64,000 bases of DNA from NCBI GenBank assembly GCA_963823165.1, contig CAWGKV010000040.1:246877-310876 (forward strand), given 5' to 3'. Positions 4,346-54,524 of this stretch are shown here, piece by piece; the stretch's first letter is position 1; the number at the start of each line of letters is the position of its first letter. The notes under the pieces are model-generated. The model did no database searches and was not told the origin of the DNA. It saw only the letters and a program-made list of their open reading frames with translations. The translations under genes were made by a program, and so were the position numbers. This DNA is from an uncultured Alphaproteobacteria bacterium. Lineage in GTDB: Bacteria > Pseudomonadota > Alphaproteobacteria > Rhizobiales > Beijerinckiaceae.

Positions 4346-6103
4346 ATGACCGTCCGCCGCCTCGCCGCCATTCTCGCCGCCGACGTCGTCGGCTATTCCC
4401 GCATGATGGGCGAGGACGAGGAGGGCACGGCGAAATCGGTGCGTGAGAGCCGTGAGGCCGCGGCGCCTATCATCGCCGCGCACGGCGGGCGCTTGTTCAA
4501 GACGATGGGGGACGGCTTCCTGGCGGAGTTCGCGTCCGTCGTTTCGGCAGTGGAATGCGCGCTGGCGCTGCAGGCGGAGACGGCGCGGTTGAACCAGGGC
4601 GCGGCGGAGACCAAACGCCTCCGCTACCGGATGGGGATCCATCTCGGCGACGTTCTGGTCGAGGGGGACGACCTCGTCGGCGACGGCGTCAATATCGCGG
4701 CGCGGCTCGAACAGATCGCCGCGCCCGGAGGCCTCTGCATCTCGAGGACGGCTTACGAGAACGTGCAGGGACGGCTCGAGGCGCGGATGACGGACCTCGG
4801 CGAGAAGGCGCTGAAGAACATCGCCCACACCGTCCGCGTCTACGCCGTCGCCGCTGGCCGGGACCTTGAGCAGCATCCGGCCGCTGGGACGAAGAGCGGA
4901 CCGCAGCGGCTTTCGCTGGTGGTGCTTCCGTTCGCCAATCTCGGCGGCGGCGCCGAGCAGGAATATTTCGTCGACGGGATCACCGAAAGCCTGACCACCG
5001 ACCTGTCGCGCATCTCGGGCGCCTTCGTCATCGCCCGCAACACGGCCTTCACCTACCGGGCGAAGCCGGTCGACGTGCGTGAGATCGGCCGCGACCTCAA
5101 CGTGCGCTATGCGCTCGAGGGCAGCGTGCAGCGCAGCGGCGAGCGCATGCGCGTCAACGTGCAGCTGATCGACGCCGAGACCGGCGCGCATCTCTGGGCC
5201 GAGCGTTTCGACAAGCCGGTCGCCGAGCTGTTCGACATGCAGGACGAGATCGTCGCGCGCATCGCCAATGCGTTCAGCGCGCAGATCGTCAGAGTCGAGG
5301 CCCGCCGGGCCGAAAAGGCGTCGGACCCCGACCTCCTCGACTACTGGTTCCGCGGTTTGGACTGGATTGGCAAAGGCATCAACCCGGAGTCGCTGGCGAA
5401 GGCGCATGAATGCTTCGAACAGGCGCACGCGATCGATCCGAACAATGTCAATGCGATCGTCGGCCTCGTCTTCGCCGAGGTGATCGCAATTCCGATGCGG
5501 GTGTTCGAGCGCGCTTCCGAAAGCCTCGCCTCGGCGGAGGCGCTGATATTGCAGGCGCTCGCCGCGGAGCCCGGGAACGCCATGGCGCGCTATTGCCTCG
5601 GACTGATCCTATTGTTCTCCAGACGCCCCGAGCAGGCGATCGCCGAACTGGAGCGAGCGCTGGCGGTCGACCGCAACCTTGCTTTCGCCCACGCCCAGAT
5701 CGGCTTCGCCAAGGCCGTGCTCGGCCGGGCCGAAGAGACGGAGGGGCATGTGATGGAGGCGATGCGGCTGAGCCCGCGCGACAGCGGCGCCTATGTCTGG
5801 TGCGATTTCCTCGCCGTCGCCAAAATCATGCTCGGGCAGGAGGCGGAGGCGCTCGATTGGTGCCGCAGGGCGGTCGATACGAACCGCGGGTATCCGATGG
5901 CGCATTTTCACTATTCGGCGGCTCTCGCACTTTGCGGACGAAAGGAGGACGCCTCGCGCGAAGTCAGGGAAGGGCTCAGGCTCACGCCGGACTTCACCGT
6001 CGACCGCTACCGGAAGGCCGCGCTCAGCGACAATCCGAGCTATCTCGCGCAGCGCGAGCGCATCCTCGAGGGCATGCGGCTTGCGGGCGCGCCGAGCAAG
6101 TGA
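4346..6103 (+). CDS. Class III adenylate/guanylate cyclase with TolB-like linker and TPR repeats
   Basis: AILAADVVGYSR, KTMGDG and GDGVNIAARL cyclase motifs; LSLVVLPFANL...EYFVDGITE TolB-like segment; helical repeat C-terminus. Confidence 0.93.
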   Translation: MTVRRLAAILAADVVGYSRMMGEDEEGTAKSVRESREAAAPIIAAHGGRLFKTMGDGFLAEFASVVSAVECALALQAETARLNQGAAETKRLRYRMGIHLGDVLVEGDDLVGDGVNIAARLEQIAAPGGLCISRTAYENVQGRLEARMTDLGEKALKNIAHTVRVYAVAAGRDLEQHPAAGTKSGPQRLSLVVLPFANLGGGAEQEYFVDGITESLTTDLSRISGAFVIARNTAFTYRAKPVDVREIGRDLNVRYALEGSVQRSGERMRVNVQLIDAETGAHLWAERFDKPVAELFDMQDEIVARIANAFSAQIVRVEARRAEKASDPDLLDYWFRGLDWIGKGINPESLAKAHECFEQAHAIDPNNVNAIVGLVFAEVIAIPMRVFERASESLASAEALILQALAAEPGNAMARYCLGLILLFSRRPEQAIAELERALAVDRNLAFAHAQIGFAKAVLGRAEETEGHVMEAMRLSPRDSGAYVWCDFLAVAKIMLGQEAEALDWCRRAVDTNRGYPMAHFHYSAALALCGRKEDASREVREGLRLTPDFTVDRYRKAALSDNPSYLAQRERILEGMRLAGAPSK

Positions 6104-8452: not shown

Positions 8453-8865
8453 AGGGAACTCCGTTTGGCATGGGATTCGTCGGCGATGATAGGGGCTCGT
8501 GGCCGTTATGCCAAACCGGAGAGCGCCGCCAGGTTTCAAGAAATGAGATCCTGTTTCAAATCCGCCTCCATCCTGCTGAGGCGCCCCGAAACGGGCCTCG
8601 ACAGCGGCGGCCAACCCGAGCGTCGCCGTAAGGCGAAGAATCGCGCCGAGGTCGCCATCAAAGCGCAAACGGCGATCGGGCCGGCGCGGAGTGGTCAGAC
8701 GTGAGTTTGCCAAGATACCGGCTCCTCATTGGCCGTCGGGAGGCTGTCAGGCCAGTGCAGCCTGGCGGCCGCGTGCTGCGTTTGTCCGAGCGCGAGCGAA
8801 TCCAGAGGATTGGGCGTGAAAAACTGTCGGCGACGGCTTACCCCTCCCGTTTCTCAAAGGCGCAC

Positions 8866-9093
8866 GAGAGGAGCAAGGGTGTTCGCCGGGCGGAGCGCCG
8901 CGGGCTTTGGCTCCCGCCTGCGAGCCGGCGGAATGTCTTTGAACGCAGCGGGAAGGCGGACGGCCGCCCGGGGAAGGAAACCGCGCGCCCGGGGGAAGCC
9001 AAAGGAACGCCAGGGGAAGCAAAAGGAACGCCAGGGGAAGCCAGATCCGTTCACCATTCTCGCCTTTTCAGTGACTTACACCAGATGTGGAGA
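8866..9093. repeat. Dispersed ~225-bp repeat, copy 1, with internal 21-bp tandem units
   Basis: About 85% identical by manual alignment to 53989-54213. Contains GGGGAAGCMAAAGGAACGCCA twice plus a partial third unit (8992-9042). Confidence 0.9.
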
Positions 9094-9261
9094 TGTGGCT
9101 TCGGCGGTTGCGCGTTTCAAAAATTCTTCATCGACCCCGTGCGGTCGATCAAGGTCAATAATCAACATCTCAGCGCCGTCCTTCCCTTCGTGCGCAATAC
9201 TAAAGGCTGCCACGAAGCCATCGCCGCGCGAGGTCGGGGTGGGCGCCAGGGGAGCGGACAA
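9076..9261 (-). CDS. Putative 61-aa SOS-controlled ORF ending inside the repeat (...SPHLV)
   Basis: GGAG-N7-TTG start, downstream of a TTGACA/LexA-box promoter. No recognisable domain. Confidence 0.3.
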   Translation of the reverse strand: MSAPLAPTPTSRGDGFVAAFSIAHEGKDGAEMLIIDLDRPHGVDEEFLKRATAEATSPHLV

Positions 9262-9287
9262 GGGAGGTCTCCGGAGCGGGTATCTTA

Positions 9288-9323
9288 GAACAAACAATGA
9301 ACATAGCTGGACCTCTTTGTCAA
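9288..9323 (-). promoter_or_regulatory. Sigma70-type promoter overlapped by an alphaproteobacterial LexA box
   Basis: GTTC-ATTGTTT-GTTC on the minus strand (9302-9288), an exact GTTC-N7-GTTC. Perfect -35 TTGACA at 9323-9318, with CATTGT 18 nt downstream. Confidence 0.7.
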
Positions 9324-9492
9324 CAGATTTTCTTCGGCCTTGTGCCCGCGCCTTTCCGCGGGCGGGCCGGGGATACGCTACTCAGCGCCAAAGACTGCCC
9401 TTTTCGCGGACCCCCGCCGCGGCCATTCGGGATGCGATATTATAGTTGACAAACCCAGCGCAAGGTGTATGGTCAAGTGAGGGATTTGGGTT

Positions 9493-10473
9493 ATGGCCAG
9501 CGTTCTCAATGAGGCATACTTTCAGGACGAACGAGTGGCTTTCAACGAGCTAGAGCGTATCGTTTGGCCGAATGATCCCGTTTGCCCATTCTGCGGCAAT
9601 ATGGGGCGCATGTATAAATTGGAGGGTGTCAGGACCAAGCCTAGCAAGAAAAACCCGGAAGGGATCGTCAGGCATGGGTTACGCAAGTGCGGTGAATGCC
9701 GGAAACAATTTACCGTTCGCAAAGGAACAATATTTGAGGACAGCCCAATTCCTTTGCATCTTTGGTTCCAAGCCTTTTACCTAATGTGTTCCAGCAAAAA
9801 GGGTATCAGCGCCAATCAGTTGCATCGCACGCTTGGCGTGACCCTGACGACGGGATGGTTCATAGGACATCGTCTGCGCGAAGCCATGCGCTCCGGCGAT
9901 CTGTCCCCCATGGGCGGGGCTGGGGGCATCGTCGAGATTGACGAGACCTACATCGGCAGGAAGGAAGGGCGCGATGTTGAGCGTGGAACTGGCCACAAAA
10001 ATGCAGTTGTAACGCTTGTCGAGCGCGGTGGCTCCGCGCGCTCTTTCCCTGTTGATCGCGCTACGCGCTCCGCAGTCGTCCCCATCGTCAGCGCGAATAT
10101 TGATTGCAAATCCCCGTGATGACAGATGAGTCCAATGTCTACACGAAGCTTGGAGAGCAGCTCGCGGCGGTTCGCGGCGCATGGTAAGGTCGATCACAGC
10201 CGCGATGAATACGCCTATACTGACCGCGCGACCGGCGTTAGCATTGGCGTTAACACAGTCGAGGGGTACTATTCCATCTTCAAACGCGGTATGAAGGGCG
10301 TTTACCAGCATTGCAAGGAGAAGCACCTTCACCGATATCTGGCTGAGTTCGATTTCCGTTACAGTAACCGGATCAAGTTGGGCGTGGACGATGAAATGCG
10401 GACGGAGCGTGCGCTTGCTGGCGTCGTTGGGAAGAGGTTGACCTATCGGGGCTCGTCAGCGGCGCGTGTGTGA
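9493..10473 (+). pseudogene. IS1595-family DDE transposase, interrupted
   Basis: Zn-ribbon CPFCG...CGECRKQFTVRKGTIFE, VEIDETY, VMTDE (in a shifted frame at 10116-10160), NTVEGYYSIFKRG and YLAEFDFRY. In-frame TGA TGA at 10117-10122. Confidence 0.93.
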
Positions 10474-11216
10474 GCGACATGCGCATCGGTACGAAATTAA
10501 CATGGATACTGGACGGGCGGCGCCCGAACCAAATTCCCTTGGCTCGCCTTGCAGAATATATGCAGAATCTTGCTGTGCTGTTTGGCGAGATAGACAATGT
10601 GCACTTCGAACAGGTTTTTGAAGGCTCTACTTGCCTTGAAGCGAAGATCAGGCCCGGAATTCCATCTCAGAGAGTGCAGGAAAGGGTAGCTGCGGTGCGC
10701 CAAAAGCGCGCGCCTGCGGACGCTATGAGGGCATATCACCGTCTTGATGAGATGGTACATGAAGATAGGGGACCAGCTAGGCTATCTTGCGGGCCGGCTA
10801 TAATACTTAGGTTCCCAGGTAAGGTTATAGAAAAATACAAACCAGCCTCTATCTTAGAGAGAGGAACAGTTGTTGGGCGTCTTTATTTTCTTATGGAGGA
10901 ATCTCCAGGGCAGCTAAGAGTGCGGATTCGGCCTAGAACGGGAAATGCATACGTCCCATGCACGGCGGACGGCAGCATTGGCCGCCATTTGAGAAACTAT
11001 TTCATGGACGCTGTACGTGCATCTGGTCGAGGAATGTGGGAGAGGATGGAAAGCGGAGAATGGTCTTGCCGTTCTCTCCATATTGATGATGTGCAGCCCG
11101 TCAAAGACAGTTCCCTCCGGGAGGCGATAAATGCCTTGAGGAACGTCGAAGCGCATTGGTCCGACGATCCGCTAGCAGAGTGGCTTGAAATTGAAGAAAG
11201 GAGCGGGGCCGCGTGA
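10470..11216 (+). CDS. Hypothetical 248-aa passenger protein, candidate partner or antitoxin of the PIN protein
   Basis: GTGA overlap with the transposase stop. N-terminal IPLARLAEYMQNLAVLFG...VHFEQVFEGS segment and a beta-rich C-terminal half. Confidence 0.85.
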   Translation: MSDMRIGTKLTWILDGRRPNQIPLARLAEYMQNLAVLFGEIDNVHFEQVFEGSTCLEAKIRPGIPSQRVQERVAAVRQKRAPADAMRAYHRLDEMVHEDRGPARLSCGPAIILRFPGKVIEKYKPASILERGTVVGRLYFLMEESPGQLRVRIRPRTGNAYVPCTADGSIGRHLRNYFMDAVRASGRGMWERMESGEWSCRSLHIDDVQPVKDSSLREAINALRNVEAHWSDDPLAEWLEIEERSGAA

Positions 11217-11806
11217 TCGCGGCGATGGATAATACGTTCCTGACTGTGCTGCTAAATCCTAACGCGGCACCGAGACCGAATCCAGCAACGCAGCAGCCGG
11301 TTCCGCATTGTCGCGAGCGCATTGAGGCGCTGATTGACGATCTTTCTCGCACGCAAGCTACTCTGATTGTACCAACTACTGCGCTCGCGGAAGCGCTCTG
11401 TGGTGATCAAGCTATAGAGGAGTACTTTTCCACCTTGCAGCAATTCTCGGCGATAGAGTTGGCTCCGTTTGATGGGAAAGCAGCTTATGAGTTTGCGCGT
11501 ATAATCCGAGAGGCAAAGGCAAAGGGAGACAAGCGTTCTGGACAGATTGGGGACTGGCAGAACGTGAAGATGGATCGAACGATTGTTGCCACCGCCATCT
11601 CTCGCTCAGCTTCCATCCTTTTTTCCGACGACGGCCCTCAGAAGAATTTTGCCATTGCCGCTGGATTGTCTGTTAAATCTACCTGGGACTTGGATTTGCC
11701 ACCAGAATACGCGCAACACCATATGAGCGAGATTGGCGATGCATCATGGCCGACTCAGAAAAAACCCCCCAAGTCGAGCGATTCAGAGCAACCGCTCGCG
11801 CGCTAG
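11213..11806 (+). CDS. PIN-domain (VapC-like) ribonuclease
   Basis: Four acidic positions in PIN order: MDNTFL, PTTALAE, KMDRTIVATA, LFSDD. GTGA overlap with the upstream gene. Confidence 0.8.
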   Translation: MIAAMDNTFLTVLLNPNAAPRPNPATQQPVPHCRERIEALIDDLSRTQATLIVPTTALAEALCGDQAIEEYFSTLQQFSAIELAPFDGKAAYEFARIIREAKAKGDKRSGQIGDWQNVKMDRTIVATAISRSASILFSDDGPQKNFAIAAGLSVKSTWDLDLPPEYAQHHMSEIGDASWPTQKKPPKSSDSEQPLAR

Positions 11807-11961
11807 GCTGCGATGAGGATAAGGAAAAGTTTGAGGCCGCGCTAAAGAAAATCGCAGCAAAAATCGCAGCACATAAACCCCGCAAGGACGGCGCAAATAG
11901 CTCCAAACGGAGAACTACCAAAAAATTGAAGAAAACAACTGAGGCTAGCCAACAGCAATAG
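11746..11961 (+). CDS. Small basic 71-aa protein (QVERF...ARALGCDED motif)
   Basis: Compact helical core QVERFRATARALGCDEDKEKFEAALKKIA followed by a Lys-rich tail. I recall similar ORFs beside IS1595 transposases, but this is unverified. Confidence 0.6.
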   Translation: MADSEKTPQVERFRATARALGCDEDKEKFEAALKKIAAKIAAHKPRKDGANSSKRRTTKKLKKTTEASQQQ

Positions 11962-12570
11962 CTATAGGTCGGGAACAATAACGAGACGCCCAGAAAAACG
12001 ACGCATGTCGTAAGTTCTTTTGACACTATCCTGCTTTAGGCCATGAAGCCAACTATACGTTGTCTCCATTTCAATTCTGGTTGACTCAGTTGCTGGCATA
12101 GACCCTAGTAAAAACCTTAAGCCGCAATCTTGTGTGGCGATGTCTGATGGGCGCAGAATTGATATTATTGGGTTGCCTTGGAGAGGGGCATTACCGCTGT
12201 AGACGTAGTTTCCGCGTGACCTTATCTTTCTACCTTCGTTCCAGATTGTGCAGGTTGTTACCAAATCGGTCAAAGTCCATGAGCCTGAATTACCCAATGT
12301 AAATAATGTTTCGGATAAGTTGTTGGCGCTGAACGCCGCAATCTGTATCGTCAACCGTGGCTGAAAGGTGTGAGAGAAATTGAAGATGAAAAGAAATGCC
12401 GCCACATAAAACCAGACATTGCGGAACGTTCGATCAATCGACAGCGTCGCTCTTAGGAAGCTTGCTAGGAATGCTTGCAGGAAAACTCGTTGGCGTCGTG
12501 GCGGCTCTTGCGACGGTTGTTCTGGCGTTTGCGGTGGTGTGGTTTCTGATTCATCATCTGTAGCAGACAT
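11962..12570 (-). CDS. Hypothetical 202-aa passenger protein with one predicted TM helix
   Basis: Acidic, Pro-rich N-terminus, hydrophobic VWFYVAAFLFIFNF and a beta-rich remainder. AT-rich codons; a promoter lies in the right TIR. Confidence 0.7.
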   Translation of the reverse strand: MSATDDESETTPPQTPEQPSQEPPRRQRVFLQAFLASFLRATLSIDRTFRNVWFYVAAFLFIFNFSHTFQPRLTIQIAAFSANNLSETLFTLGNSGSWTLTDLVTTCTIWNEGRKIRSRGNYVYSGNAPLQGNPIISILRPSDIATQDCGLRFLLGSMPATESTRIEMETTYSWLHGLKQDSVKRTYDMRRFSGRLVIVPDL

Positions 12571-12744
12571 GGCAATCGCACCGGAGTTCCCGCCATGTCA
12601 ACGCACCGCTTTGACGAGACGCCAAAGCGGGCATCAGCCTACCCCCAGATCGTGGTTTGTCAACTAGAATATCGCCATTCGGGATGAAACCGCTTCGCCC
12701 TTGTTGGGCACCAGATCTTGTAGGTGCTACTCGGGAAGGCAAGC

Positions 12745-28279: not shown

Positions 28280-28786
28280 TCAGACAGGCGATGCGCGATG
28301 AACCCGGGCCATCGCGATTGCGTCTCGAAACCTCCCATCGACAAAGACAGCATCCTTCAGCACGCCTTCCCTGACAAAACCGACCTTGTCGTAAAGGGCG
28401 ATCGCCCGAGCGTTGTCGGCGTGCACGCTGAACTCGACGCGAACAAAGCCTAACTGGTCCGCCCTTTTCAGGGTCGTTTCAAGCAGCCGCAACCCCAGGC
28501 CATAGCCTCGATAGGCAGGGACGAGGCCCATGCCGAGGCTCCCTCGATGAGCGTGCGCCGGAAAGCAGTGCCGACGAACGTCACACCAGCCGACGACTTC
28601 ATCATTGGCCAGCGCCGCGAATTGCGGATCGCCGCGCTTCATGCCGCTCAGCACGAAATCGCGGGTCTCGGCCAAAGGGGGAGCTTCAAGAAGAGTGAGA
28701 TATTTGCGCTCGCGGGCAACCGCGTCGAGCGCGCGGTGAAAGCTCTCAATGTCCTCCGGCCGGATTGGCTCAATCTTTGCGTTCAT
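28280..28786 (-). CDS. GNAT acetyltransferase (RimJ/YhhY-like)
   Basis: VVGWCDV, GSLGMGLVPAYRGYGLG, VHADNARAIALYDKVGF. Confidence 0.92.
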   Translation of the reverse strand: MNAKIEPIRPEDIESFHRALDAVARERKYLTLLEAPPLAETRDFVLSGMKRGDPQFAALANDEVVGWCDVRRHCFPAHAHRGSLGMGLVPAYRGYGLGLRLLETTLKRADQLGFVRVEFSVHADNARAIALYDKVGFVREGVLKDAVFVDGRFRDAIAMARVHRASPV

Positions 28787-53886: not shown

Positions 53887-53988
53887 GCGGTCGGACGGCG
53901 CTCTTCCCCTCTCGGGGCCCGTCAGACGGAGCGGTCCGGGCCGGCCGCGGACGACTAGCGAGAGCGATCAACTCGAACGTCCGCCAAC

Positions 53989-54213
53989 GAGAGGGCAAGG
54001 GCGTTCGCCAGGCGGAGCGCCGTGGGCTTTTGCGCCGTCCGCGAGCCGGCGGAACGTCCTGGAACGCAGCGGGAAGGCGGCTGGCCCCTCGGGGAATGAA
54101 GCCTCACGCCCGGGGAAGCCAAAGGAACGCCGGGGGAAGCAAAAGGAACGCCAGGGGAAACCGAATCCGTTCACGATTCTCGTCCTTTCAACGGCTTACA
54201 CCAGATGCGGAGA
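53989..54213. repeat. Dispersed ~225-bp repeat, copy 2
   Basis: About 85% identical to 8866-9093, same orientation, same 21-bp tandem units. Confidence 0.9.
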
Positions 54214-54423
54214 GTCCAAATTGTTTTCCGTCCGCCGGCCTGCTGCCGGCGCCGTCCAACGCCAAGCAGCCGGCCCGCGTCCATCCTCGTTCCCATGGAG
54301 GCTTCGCGCGATATCGTCATAGGCGCATCGCTCGCGGCGCAGGGCGAGGAATGCGCCCTCGGCGCACGATCCTGCCAGAGGCATCGAGCCGGCGATTGAT
54401 GGCCGGCGCGGTAATTCGTCCAT
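54196..54423 (-). CDS. Putative 75-aa SOS-controlled ORF ending inside the repeat (...SPHLV)
   Basis: GGAGAG upstream of the ATG, downstream of a LexA-boxed promoter. No recognisable domain. Confidence 0.3.
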   Translation of the reverse strand: MDELPRRPSIAGSMPLAGSCAEGAFLALRRERCAYDDIARSLHGNEDGRGPAAWRWTAPAAGRRTENNLDSPHLV

Positions 54424-54495
54424 GCTTGCCTCGCTCTCCCGGCGGGTTCGGCGGGGTTGGCGCCAAAGAATGTCCCCGTCCGGATGTCTGCCACT

Positions 54496-54524
54496 ATAAT
54501 GTTCCCTATTTGTTCGTTTGGCAA
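54496..54524 (-). promoter_or_regulatory. Sigma70-type promoter with a LexA box between -35 and -10
   Basis: GTTC-CCTATTT-GTTC at 54501-54515 (exact GTTC-N7-GTTC). Minus-strand TTGCCA (54524-54519)-N17-CATTAT. Confidence 0.7.

What the first reader, a model, noticed from the sequence alone, without database searches (positions are those of the whole stretch)
8866..9323. SOS promoter, short ORF and shared repeat: locus 1 of a repeated LexA-controlled unit
Seen: minus-strand TTGACA plus an exact GTTC-N7-GTTC box over the -10 region, then GGAG-TTG and a 61-aa ORF whose last codons and stop (SPHLV*) are supplied by the ~225-bp repeat. The same layout recurs 45 kb away (53989-54524) with unrelated sequence between promoter and repeat. 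Known: GTTC-N7-GTTC is the alphaproteobacterial LexA operator. Inference: a dispersed family of DNA-damage-inducible transcripts with a variable 5' part and a conserved 3' module. These could be structured RNAs, microprotein cassettes or degenerate mobile units. I know of no named system with this layout.
Basis: partly seen in the sequence, partly recalled or inferred. Interest (0 to 1): 0.72.

Follow-up and report, generated by a model that had tools for sequence, protein, structure and literature searches.

The report
SOS-controlled non-coding units sharing a repeat
Uncultured soil alphaproteobacteria carry a small family of non-coding units in which a promoter with a DNA-damage (LexA) operator points into a conserved, unstructured, pyrimidine-rich 21-base repeat; the layout is far beyond chance and undescribed, but its function is unknown.

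Summary
Both window loci have a promoter carrying an exact GTTC-N7-GTTC box, then an unrelated spacer, then a ~220-nt shared module (~88% identical). I recovered ten further independent units from soil assemblies. Ten of the 12 units have an exact box 150-560 nt 5' of the module. The other two have a one-mismatch box with the same T-rich spacer. No unit has a box on the 3' side. Of 11 exact boxes in 117 kb of held sequence, 10 lie in these zones (P about 1e-18 to 1e-21).

The "61-aa ORF" is not a gene: GC3 is 0.53, against 0.84-0.93 for real genes. The module is non-coding and has no conserved RNA structure; most copies fold no better than their shuffles. It consists of a ~50-nt A/T-richer head followed by five phased 21-nt units that begin YTTCCC. 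It is multicopy in soil metagenomes, varies in unit number and is absent in one allele.

Best reading: LexA-repressed non-coding transcripts whose single-stranded, C-rich periodic tail recruits a factor, most plausibly Rho, which would end the transcript. This mechanism is inferred, not shown. No RNA data exist.

The parts
9318..9323 (-). Unit 1: -35 hexamer TTGACA
   Evidence: Read. TTGACA-N18-CATTGT scores 9 of 12 and points toward the module.
9288..9302 (-). Unit 1: LexA operator GTTCATTGTTTGTTC, overlapping the -10 (CATTGT, 9299-9294)
   Evidence: Exact match. Same type as the Caulobacter consensus GTTCN7GTTC (PMC12700426).
9094..9287 (-). Unit 1: unique spacer. It contains the literal 61/73-aa ORF (9297-9076), which is judged non-coding.
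   Evidence: GC3 is 0.53, against 0.84-0.93 for real genes. Not alignable to any other unit. No Pfam hit.
9041..9093 (-). Unit 1: module head (A/T-richer, ~50% GC). It has stops in all three frames: TAA 9078-9076, TGA 9070-9068, TGA 9053-9051. It also holds the near-invariant GAACGGAT at 9052-9045.
   Evidence: Alignments. Sharp 5' boundary at 9093/9098 in metagenome contigs. Three-frame stops occur in 7 of 12 copies.
8935..9040 (-). Unit 1: five phased 21/22-nt units, each starting CTTCCC (starts at 9040, 9019, 8998, 8976, 8955). The first two are the full form CTTCCCCTGGCGTTCCTTTKG.
   Evidence: Deepest part of the metagenome depth peak.
8873..8934 (-). Unit 1: module tail, less conserved
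8837..8872 (-). Unit 1: 3' extension TCTCGTGCGCCTTTGAGAAACGGGAGGGGTAAG. With the last module bases CTCC (8876-8873) it forms a CTCCTCTC/GGGAGGGG hairpin. The extension is shared with L009, L015, L016 and L019 but not with unit 2.
   Evidence: The nhmmer match runs to 8817.
54519..54524 (-). Unit 2: -35 hexamer TTGCCA
   Evidence: Promoter scan found TTGCCA-N17-CATTAT, 9 of 12.
54501..54515 (+). Unit 2: LexA operator GTTCCCTATTTGTTC. It reads GAAC..GAAC on the transcribed strand and fills the promoter spacer; the -10 CATTAT lies at 54501-54496.
54211..54500 (-). Unit 2: unique spacer. It contains a literal 75-aa ORF (54423-54196), which is judged non-coding.
   Evidence: GC3 is 0.63. Unrelated to unit 1. 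No Pfam hit.
54161..54210 (-). Unit 2: module head (TAA at 54198-54196; GAACGGAT at 54172-54165)
54056..54160 (-). Unit 2: five phased 21-nt units (starts at 54160, 54139, 54118, 54097, 54076)
53989..54055 (-). Unit 2: module tail. One metagenome contig lacks 53989-54228, which is the whole module plus 18 nt of spacer.
   Evidence: joint 53988 to 54229, skipping 240 nt.

Best explanation
Each locus is a small non-coding transcription unit under SOS control.

From sequence and comparison:
- A sigma-70-type promoter overlapped or abutted by an alphaproteobacterial LexA operator points into 150-560 nt of unconstrained spacer.
- The spacer is followed, always in the same orientation, by a conserved ~220-nt module.
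- The module has a ~50-nt A/T-richer head, usually with stop codons in all three frames. It then has five phased 21-nt units beginning YTTCCC. Between one and five of these are the full form CTTCCCCNGGCGTTCC.
- The module is pyrimidine-rich (69-74%), has more C than G, is almost free of A, is non-coding, and has no conserved secondary structure.

Inferred:
- LexA keeps the units silent, and DNA damage releases transcription into the module.
- The module acts as single-stranded RNA. Any ribosome that started in the spacer is released at the head. The naked, periodic C-rich tract that follows is a loading platform for a factor that reads phased YC-rich motifs.
- The most likely factor is the termination factor Rho. 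On this reading the module is a portable Rho-dependent terminator or insulator that ends the SOS transcript before it enters neighbouring genes, which are convergent in at least 4 of 12 units.
- If roughly ten units per genome fire together, they might also titrate that factor.

The units spread by whole-unit duplication and are reshuffled by recombination within the invariant repeat core.
For: LexA linkage:
- 10 of 12 units have an exact box and 2 have a one-mismatch box, all 5' of the module and none within 650 nt 3' of it. The probability is about 1e-18 to 1e-21.
- Box orientation varies (7 forward, 5 reverse), but the best promoter matches point toward the module. Examples: L018 TTGACA-N17-AATAAT with the box filling the spacer, and win2 TTGCCA-N17-CATTAT.
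- Fixed polarity combined with variable distance points to transcription as the link.

Non-coding:
- GC3 is 0.54-0.72 in all six frames of the module and 0.48-0.66 in the spacer ORFs, against 0.84-0.93 in real genes.
- Indels shift the frames between copies.

No excess RNA structure:
- Z-scores are +2.03 and +1.42 for the two whole modules.
- Z-scores range from -0.47 to +2.28 (mean about +1) for eight 150-nt cores.
- The consensus structure energy is -5.9 kcal/mol over 220 nt.

Periodicity and composition:
- TTCC motifs fall at +13, 24, 34, 45, 55, 76, 97, 108 and 118.
- YTTCCC falls at +12, 33, 54, 75/76 and 96/97 in the copies that carry the standard array, even where the sequence between them varies.
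- The C/G ratio is 1.55-1.68, in the 96th-98th percentile of the window.

Other:
- No intrinsic terminator lies on the transcript strand.
- Head stops are present in all three frames in 7 of 12 copies, against ~0.17 expected from composition.
- L014 carries a tandem duplication of a whole unit.
Against: - There is no transcript, LexA-binding or Rho data of any kind. No RNA runs could be found.
- Rho has little sequence specificity, so it does not explain why a 26-nt core (TTCCCCTGGCGTTCCTTTTGCTT) is almost invariant across copies. Gene conversion could explain this, but so could a sequence-specific binder.
- G content is still 26-30%, and the C/G ratio is high but not extreme.
- The model does not explain why a terminator module would be tied to SOS promoters that make nothing recognisable.
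- A 21-bp period equals two turns of B-DNA and fits a DNA-binding array equally well.
- The win1 promoter needs an 18-nt spacer and a weak -10. The L009 and L016 promoters are weak.
Confidence: 0.35

Rival explanations
1. The module is a trans-acting regulatory RNA or sponge. On this view the SOS-induced transcripts are the product. Their repeated single-stranded CUUCCCC / GUUCCUUUU motifs resemble the anti-Shine-Dalgarno sequence. They would bind and titrate a specific RNA-binding protein, or pair with purine-rich (SD-like) regions of mRNAs or sRNAs, and so reprogramme translation after DNA damage.
For: - The RNA-level evidence is the same as for the best explanation: fixed polarity, no excess structure, and periodic motifs.
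- Near-invariance of the 26-nt core across lineages fits recognition by a specific partner better than Rho does.
- Roughly ten copies per genome equivalent would give a dosage effect.
Against: - No partner is known.
- Known alphaproteobacterial anti-SD sRNAs present their motifs in hairpin loops and end in intrinsic terminators; neither is seen here.
- There is no Rfam match.
- A 150-560 nt unconstrained leader is unusual for an sRNA.
Confidence: 0.2
2. The module works as double-stranded DNA. It would be an iteron-like array: five 21-bp units, so that the YTTCCC motifs lie on one face of the helix. An unknown sequence-specific protein (recombinase, initiator, partition-type or LexA-related) would bind it. 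SOS-controlled transcription through the array would switch its activity, for example transcription-activated recombination or replication.
For: - The units keep a strict 21-bp spacing over ~105 bp even where the sequence between motifs varies.
- Each full unit is CTTC-N7-GTTC, which matches 7 of 8 positions of a LexA box.
- The central base of CCNGG is free (T, C, G or A) while its flanks are fixed.
- The number of 21-nt units varies between copies, from 1 to 5.
- L017 and L021 are ~99% identical from the first unit onward but unrelated upstream, so a recombination breakpoint lies at the start of the array.
Against: - Fixed orientation relative to the promoter, combined with variable distance, is not required for a DNA site.
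- No rep, par, integrase or transposase gene is consistently nearby.
- No plasmid or phage carries the array.
- In units 3-5 only ~7 bp are conserved, which is short for an iteron.
- The L017/L021 breakpoint is also where ordinary homologous recombination would cross over, because it is the longest identical tract.
Confidence: 0.2
3. The module is a selfish, non-autonomous mobile repeat with no host function. It would either insert preferentially downstream of LexA-regulated promoters or propagate only from such sites. The SOS link would then time its own mobilisation.
For: - The module is multicopy in soil metagenomes. Head and tail depth is ~8-15 times the flank depth, and the core is 50-100 times, partly because the 21-nt unit is repeated within each copy.
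- Its 5' boundary is sharp, and contigs diverge into many different upstream sequences there.
- One allele lacks exactly the module while keeping the spacer.
- Units sit in unrelated genomic contexts, including inside a hut operon.
Against: - There are no terminal inverted repeats and no hairpins, and no target duplication could be established.
- No cognate transposase or reverse transcriptase was found.
- Only 2 copies were found in the one GTDB species genome that carries the module.
- In L014 the whole unit, promoter included, duplicated together.
- Targeting to LexA promoters has no precedent that I know of.
Confidence: 0.15
4. The units are SOS-inducible microprotein or type I toxin cassettes. 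The short ORF after each promoter would be the product and the module its shared 3' UTR.
For: - Every unit has an SD-like motif and a start codon within ~20-110 nt of the box.
- The ORFs often end at the module's TAA.
- LexA-controlled type I toxins exist in E. coli: tisB and dinQ (PMC2577331, PMC3567139).
Against: - GC3 is 0.48-0.66, against 0.84-0.93 for real genes.
- The peptides are unrelated to one another, are not hydrophobic, and have no Pfam hit.
- The tandem copies in L014 differ by a frameshift within the ORF.
- In GC-rich DNA an ORF is expected to run to the first A/T-rich stretch by chance.
Confidence: 0.04
5. The module carries its own alternative-sigma promoter. Candidates are a sigma-54-like TGGC-N7-TTGC or an ECF-like GAAC-N18-CGTT. 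On this view the module is a mobile promoter for downstream genes.
For: - TGGCGTTCCTTTTGC is present at +19 in all four copies scanned for it and is conserved in the rest (TGGG in L017, L018 and L021; TTTCC in L020). Only 6 such matches occur in 64 kb on both strands, and 2 of them are the modules.
- GAAC and CGTT are conserved in most copies.
Against: - The motif was found post hoc among many tried.
- The -22 to -20 positions mismatch the sigma-54 consensus.
- No conserved enhancer site or activator gene is present.
- The ECF-like spacing is one base too long.
- In at least 4 of 12 units the downstream gene is convergent.
- It does not explain the obligatory LexA promoter upstream.
Confidence: 0.04

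Closest known systems
LexA-regulated non-coding RNA loci (E. coli istR-2/tisAB, PMC2577331; Klebsiella DinR from the dinI 3' UTR, PMC10907235; LexA-bound sRNA genes in M. tuberculosis, PMC3381160)
   Same: A LexA operator on a promoter whose product is not a conventional protein. The SOS regulon reaches into non-coding RNA.
   Different: - Those are single loci with defined, structured RNAs and intrinsic terminators.
- Here a multicopy family shares only the operator type and a conserved, apparently unstructured repeat module.
- Each copy has an unrelated 150-560 nt leader.
Dispersed intergenic repeats (REP/BIME, ERIC, rhizobial RIME, Correia/MITEs); from my own knowledge of these families
   Same: A short non-coding element dispersed in intergenic regions. 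It is polymorphic for presence, is multicopy, and serves as a substrate for recombination.
   Different: - Those elements are palindromic or have terminal inverted repeats, and they fold stably. This module folds no better than its shuffles and has no inverted repeats.
- None of them is known to be systematically coupled to a LexA operator.
Rho-dependent terminators / rut sites (e.g. lambda tR1, and artificial polypyrimidine repeats that terminate in a Rho-dependent way); from my own knowledge
   Same: A C-rich, A-poor, apparently unstructured tract of more than 80 nt with regularly spaced YC motifs. It follows stop codons and has no hairpin-U terminator.
   Different: - rut sites are degenerate and are not conserved as dispersed repeats.
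- G content here is higher than in classic rut sites.
- Rho dependence has not been tested.
Iteron arrays of plasmid and phage origins and partition sites (P1, RK2, F, R1 parC); from my own knowledge
   Same: Three to seven direct repeats with a period of about 21-22 bp, helically phased, next to an A/T-richer segment. Copy number is variable.
   Different: - No initiator or partition gene is nearby.
- The array is absent from the plasmid and phage collections.
- The copies are chromosomal and dispersed.
- Only ~7 bp per unit are conserved in units 3-5.
LDR and QUAD/SIB repeats of E. coli (type I toxin-antitoxin loci first noticed as repeats) and SOS toxins tisB and dinQ (PMC3567139)
   Same: Repeated intergenic units a few hundred bp long, some under LexA control, with a short ORF after the promoter.
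   Different: In those loci the toxin ORF is the conserved part. Here the ORF region is the unconserved, non-coding-looking part, and the conserved part has no ORF.

Membership tests
Alphaproteobacterial LexA (SOS) regulon member | Operator GTTC-N7-GTTC (direct repeat) in the promoter region | tested here: met
   Exact boxes at 9288-9302 and 54501-54515 and in 8 of 10 further units. T-rich spacers resemble the Caulobacter example GTTCttgttatGTTC (PMC12700426).
Alphaproteobacterial LexA (SOS) regulon member | Operator overlaps or abuts a functional promoter | tested here: inconclusive
   Consensus matches point toward the module in most units. They are good for win2, L018 and L021, and weak for win1 (18-nt spacer), L009 and L016. 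These are consensus scans only.
Alphaproteobacterial LexA (SOS) regulon member | LexA binding, and induction by DNA damage | not testable with these tools
   No RNA runs contain the loci. The organism is an uncultured soil bacterium.
REP/MITE-type dispersed repeat | Multicopy, dispersed, presence/absence polymorphism | tested here: met
   12 loci in unrelated contexts. Metagenome depth over the module is 8-100 times the flank depth. One allele lacks 53989-54228.
REP/MITE-type dispersed repeat | Terminal inverted repeats or a palindromic hairpin; target-site duplication | tested here: not met
   No inverted repeat links the module ends. The module folds no better than its shuffles. The empty-site joint shares no letters between its two sides. 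Only one such joint was seen, on a contig ~90% identical to the window.
Rho-dependent terminator (rut site) | A C>G tract of at least ~80 nt without stable structure, with regularly spaced C-rich motifs, downstream of translation stops | tested here: met
   C/G ratio 1.55-1.68, in the 96th-98th percentile; pyrimidines 69-74%. Z-scores average about +1. Motifs recur every 10-11 and every 21 nt. Stops in 2-3 frames in 11 of 12 heads.
Rho-dependent terminator (rut site) | Rho-dependent 3' ends in vivo or in vitro | not testable with these tools
   No transcript data are available.
Iteron array (origin or partition site) | Phased direct repeats of ~17-22 bp | tested here: met
   Five units at 21/22-bp spacing in the copies with the standard array.
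Iteron array (origin or partition site) | Cognate initiator or partition gene adjacent; occurrence on plasmids or phages | tested here: not met
   The neighbours are unrelated housekeeping or IS genes. No match in the plasmid, phage or viral collections.
Type I toxin-antitoxin / SOS microprotein cassette | A conserved short ORF, usually hydrophobic, with coding signature | tested here: not met
   GC3 is 0.48-0.66 against 0.84-0.93 for real genes. The peptides are unrelated and not hydrophobic, and have no Pfam hit.
Integron gene cassette (ORF + attC) | An attC-type imperfect inverted repeat at the 3' end; intI/attI nearby | tested here: not met
   No inverted repeat or folded structure in the module. 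No integrase next to any unit.
Any described RNA family (Rfam 15) | Covariance-model match | tested here: not met
   No hit at gathering thresholds over the whole window. At E<=10 over 8700-9500 there was only noise.

The most novel reading that the evidence does not exclude
The units are SOS-switched recombination or rearrangement sites. LexA-controlled transcription would run into a phased 21-bp protein-binding array that is dispersed around the chromosome. DNA damage would then license exchange between copies, giving programmed, damage-inducible genome reshuffling or cassette exchange of the promoter-proximal parts. The L017/L021 pair would be a caught example: they are ~99% identical from the first repeat unit onward and unrelated upstream, and each has its own LexA box.
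Probability: 0.08. Interest if true: 0.9.

Novelty: new variant of a known kind. Interest (0 to 1): 0.66.

Why it matters
If the units are damage-inducible as the sequence implies, a substantial share of the LexA regulon in an abundant, uncultured soil alphaproteobacterial lineage consists of non-coding units built on one shared repeat. That would be roughly ten units per genome equivalent, against a few dozen LexA targets in model alphaproteobacteria. No such SOS output is described.

The finding is directly testable. Does the SOS response use dedicated RNAs, terminators or DNA arrays to change termination, translation or recombination globally? It also gives a clean natural case of selection holding an operator and a distal module together while everything between them turns over.

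Tried and rejected
**Searches that found nothing**
- Rfam, at gathering thresholds and in E-value mode: no family.
- tRNA/tmRNA scan: none.
- blastn of the module against plasmids and phages: none.
- Two exact-pattern scans of JGI metagenomes and one of viral contigs: none. The only JGI copy has CCCCTGGGG and was reached through a protein search instead.
- RNA run searches: none.
- Literature searches for LexA-linked repeats, MITEs or sRNAs in Alphaproteobacteria: nothing matching.

**Searches of limited yield**
- The GTDB genome scan found the module in a single species-level MAG; the other 11 hits were chance 20-mers.
- A six-frame concatenated protein query was swamped by low-complexity candidates. 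Shorter queries and the exhaustive representative search worked.
- The DNA for P0001, P0006 and P0007 could not be retrieved.

**Ideas considered and dropped**
- Coding in any frame. Frame 1 (SPGVPFA) shows some synonymous-looking changes, but it has GC3 of ~0.3, no start codon and an upstream stop.
- A short hydrophobic peptide in frame 0: no start codon.
- The low-GC island beside unit 1 being bounded by the module. It is an independent IS1595-type transposon with its own TIRs and TSD.
- A shared motif other than the box in the promoter and spacer regions: none above shuffles.
- A conserved hairpin between units 3 and 4: no support in the consensus fold.
- DnaA boxes, EcfG and RpoH promoters, T-DNA-border or oriT nic similarity, CcrM sites, and Chi-like arrays. 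These were resemblances only, with wrong spacing or no conservation.
- A correlation between box orientation and the 3' extension: broken by L019.
Full report
**1. What is in the window**

On the minus strand, locus 1 reads as follows:
- TTGACA at 9323-9318.
- After 18 nt, CATTGT at 9299-9294, lying inside an exact GTTCATTGTTTGTTC at 9302-9288.
- GGAG-N7-TTG, then an open frame ending at TAA 9078-9076.

Locus 2 reads TTGCCA (54524-54519), a 17-nt spacer, then CATTAT (54501-54496). An exact box at 54501-54515 fills the spacer but is inverted relative to locus 1.

Both loci then run into a shared sequence, 9093-8873 and 54210-53989. It is ~88% identical with two 1-nt indels. The 190-290 nt between box and repeat do not align. 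The box alone is not enriched in the window: 3 found, 2.2 expected. The third copy lies inside a GNAT acetyltransferase gene.

**2. The family outside the window**

A scan of 185,579 species genomes with a 20-mer from the repeat found it in one uncultured alphaproteobacterial MAG, at two loci (L003, L009). Both have an exact box ~200 nt upstream.

The window itself comes from soil metagenomes. Gene callers sometimes call spurious ORFs across the repeat, so I searched protein collections with translations of it. This recovered eight more loci from ENA, JGI and Logan soil assemblies: L014-L021.

That makes 12 independent units; L014 carries two tandem copies of its unit.
- Ten units have an exact GTTC-N7-GTTC 150-560 nt 5' of the module.
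- L014 (GTCCATTGTTTGTTC, with a spacer identical to win1's) and L019 (GTTCACTGTTTGTCC) have one mismatch.
- No unit has a box within 650 nt on the 3' side.
- Of 11 exact boxes in the 117,352 bp I hold, 10 are in these zones.

With a per-zone chance of 0.005-0.012, ten of twelve has a probability of about 1e-18 to 1e-21. The consensus GTTCN7GTTC is the established LexA operator of Caulobacter and other Alphaproteobacteria (PMC12700426).

Box orientation is forward in 7 units and reverse in 5. The best -35/-10 matches nevertheless point toward the module. The clearest case is L018: TTGACA, a 17-nt spacer filled almost entirely by the box, then AATAAT.

**3. What the spacer is**

The spacers are mutually unalignable apart from the tandem pair in L014. 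They share no motif above shuffles other than the box.

The ORFs that end at the module's TAA have GC3 of 0.48-0.66. Five real genes in the window have 0.84-0.93. The ORFs have no Pfam match, and the two L014 copies differ by a frameshift.

**4. What the module is**

All six frames have non-coding GC3 of 0.54-0.72. The anatomy from 12 copies is:
- A ~50-nt head, GGTGTAAGCC.TTGAAAAGGCGAGAAT.GTGAACGGAT, at ~50% GC. It has stops in three frames in 7 copies and in two frames in 4.
- Five units starting YTTCCC at +12, +33, +54, +75/76 and +96/97 from GAACGGAT. Between one and five of them are the full CTTCCCCNGGCGTTCCTTTKG form. The 26-nt stretch TTCCCCTGGCGTTCCTTTTGCTT is almost invariant.
- A looser tail.
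- In five units, a 3' extension that forms a CCTCTC/GGGAGGGG hairpin.

TTCC motifs recur every 10-11 nt. The RNA sense strand is 69-74% pyrimidine and ~5% A, with a C/G ratio of 1.55-1.68.

The module has no excess RNA structure:
- Whole modules give z = +2.03 and +1.42.
- Eight 150-nt cores give z from -0.47 to +2.28.
- The 12-sequence consensus fold is worth only -5.9 kcal/mol.
- There is no Rfam family and no intrinsic terminator on that strand.

**5. Population behaviour**

I laid soil-metagenome contigs on both loci.
- Depth over the head and tail is ~8-15 times the flank depth. Over the repeat core it is 50-100 times; part of that excess arises because the unit repeats within each copy.
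- The 5' boundary is sharp, at 9093/9098 and 54207-54215. Beyond it, contigs diverge into many different sequences.
- This indicates about ten copies per genome equivalent in the community, each with its own upstream DNA.
- One contig joins 53988 to 54229. That allele keeps the spacer but lacks the module.
- Other contigs carry an extra 39-42 nt, which is two units.

In L014 the whole unit, including box and spacer, is tandemly duplicated at 94% identity.

L017 and L021 sit upstream of the same ABC-transporter gene. They are ~99% identical from the first repeat unit onward but unrelated upstream, and each has its own exact box. This looks like a recent exchange with its breakpoint at the longest identical tract.

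**6. Interpretation**

The polarity is fixed, the distance is variable, and the spacer is unconstrained. Together these argue that transcription is what links the operator to the module. The units are therefore best read as LexA-repressed non-coding transcription units.

For the module I commit to an RNA-level role as a single-stranded, periodic, C-rich platform. The features are those of a Rho loading site placed after translation stops, with no intrinsic terminator. That would make it a portable terminator or insulator for SOS transcripts. It might also act as a sink for the factor when all units fire.

I hold this at about 0.35, for three reasons:
- Nothing has been measured.
- Rho does not explain the near-invariant core.
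- A 21-bp period fits a DNA-binding array equally well.

The rivals are a specific RNA sponge (0.2), a DNA iteron-like array switched by transcription (0.2) and a selfish mobile repeat with a preference for SOS promoters (0.15). Microprotein or toxin cassettes and an internal sigma-54/ECF promoter are unlikely (about 0.04 each).

**7. Comparison and novelty**

LexA-controlled non-coding RNAs and dispersed intergenic repeats are each known. I found no description of a multicopy family in which an unstructured phased-repeat module is obligatorily coupled to a LexA operator. It fails the defining tests for REP/MITE elements, iteron origins, integron cassettes and type I toxin loci.

I file it as a new variant of known kinds: SOS-regulated non-coding loci and dispersed repeats. 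There is a small chance that it is something categorically new, such as SOS-licensed recombination sites.

**Caveats**
- All carriers are uncultured soil bacteria.
- Several assemblies are long-read, so single-base indels may be sequencing errors.
- The copy-number estimate mixes strains.

Noticed in passing
window 9434-12675: A low-GC (52-55%) IS1595-family transposon sits 110 nt upstream of the unit-1 promoter. It has 22-nt terminal inverted repeats (9434-9455 and 12654-12675) and a 10-bp target duplication, CATTCGGGAT (9424-9433 and 12676-12685). Its transposase is split into two ORFs (9493-10119 and 10126-10473). Its cargo includes an unknown 248-aa ORF (10470-11216) overlapping a weak PIN-domain ORF (11213-11806). 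It is independent of the SOS unit.
   Followed up: yes
window 53989-54228 (metagenome run X5): One contig (depth ~10, ~90% identical to the window) joins 53988 directly to 54229. This allele keeps the spacer but lacks the whole module. GGCGGAC occurs just outside both ends, but both copies appear to be retained in the empty allele.
   Followed up: partly
window 8991-9032 and 54112-54150: Metagenome contigs carry an extra 42 or 39(+3) nt here, which equals two more 21-nt units. Across loci the number of full units ranges from 1 (L009, L014b) to 5 (L017, L020, L021). The array behaves like a variable-number tandem repeat.
   Followed up: partly
L017 3700-4604 vs L021 130-960: Two soil contigs are ~99% identical from the first repeat unit through the downstream SbmA/BacA-like ABC gene. 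Upstream they are completely unrelated, and each has its own exact LexA box. About 10 differences are packed into the 27 nt of head just before the switch point.
   Followed up: partly
L014 4128-5900: Tandem duplication of a whole unit (box, ~520-nt spacer and module) at 94% identity. The second module is truncated to one full unit. The spacer contains hairpin repeats of the GTGGATGGCCGGGACAAGCCCGGCCATGAC type, which from memory are typical of Bradyrhizobium-like genomes.
   Followed up: partly
window 9020-9034 and 54140-54154 (minus strand): TGGCGTTCCTTTTGC matches the sigma-54 -24/-12 core TGGC-N7-TTGC. It is conserved in nearly all module copies (TGGG in L017, L018 and L021; TTTCC in L020). 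Only 6 such matches occur in the window on both strands.
   Followed up: partly
window 54496-54498: Contigs from runs X1 and X2 that are otherwise identical to the window lack 3 nt inside the predicted -10 of unit 2. This is either strain variation in the promoter or an indel error in the long-read assembly behind the window.
   Followed up: no
L003 3652-4280: In the MAG the unit sits inside a histidine-utilisation cluster, between a GFA-family gene and hutU. Next to it is a low-GC 160-aa ORF with no Pfam match, transcribed divergently from the LexA box. That ORF could also be under the box's control.
   Followed up: partly
L017 ~4400-4420 (minus strand): The spacer of L017 contains a second, partial copy of the head motif (TAAGCCATTGTAAAAGC), ~190 nt upstream of the real head.
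   Followed up: no
window 28430-28444: The third exact GTTC-N7-GTTC in the window has a GC-rich spacer and lies inside a GNAT acetyltransferase gene (28280-28786, minus strand). It is most likely a chance match.
   Followed up: yes
L018 4070-6095: About 0.5-2.5 kb from the L018 unit lie a split IS transposase (DUF4096 and DDE_Tnp_1), a TacA-type antitoxin with a GNAT toxin-like acetyltransferase, and a weak SRAP (SOS-response-associated peptidase) hit.
   Followed up: no
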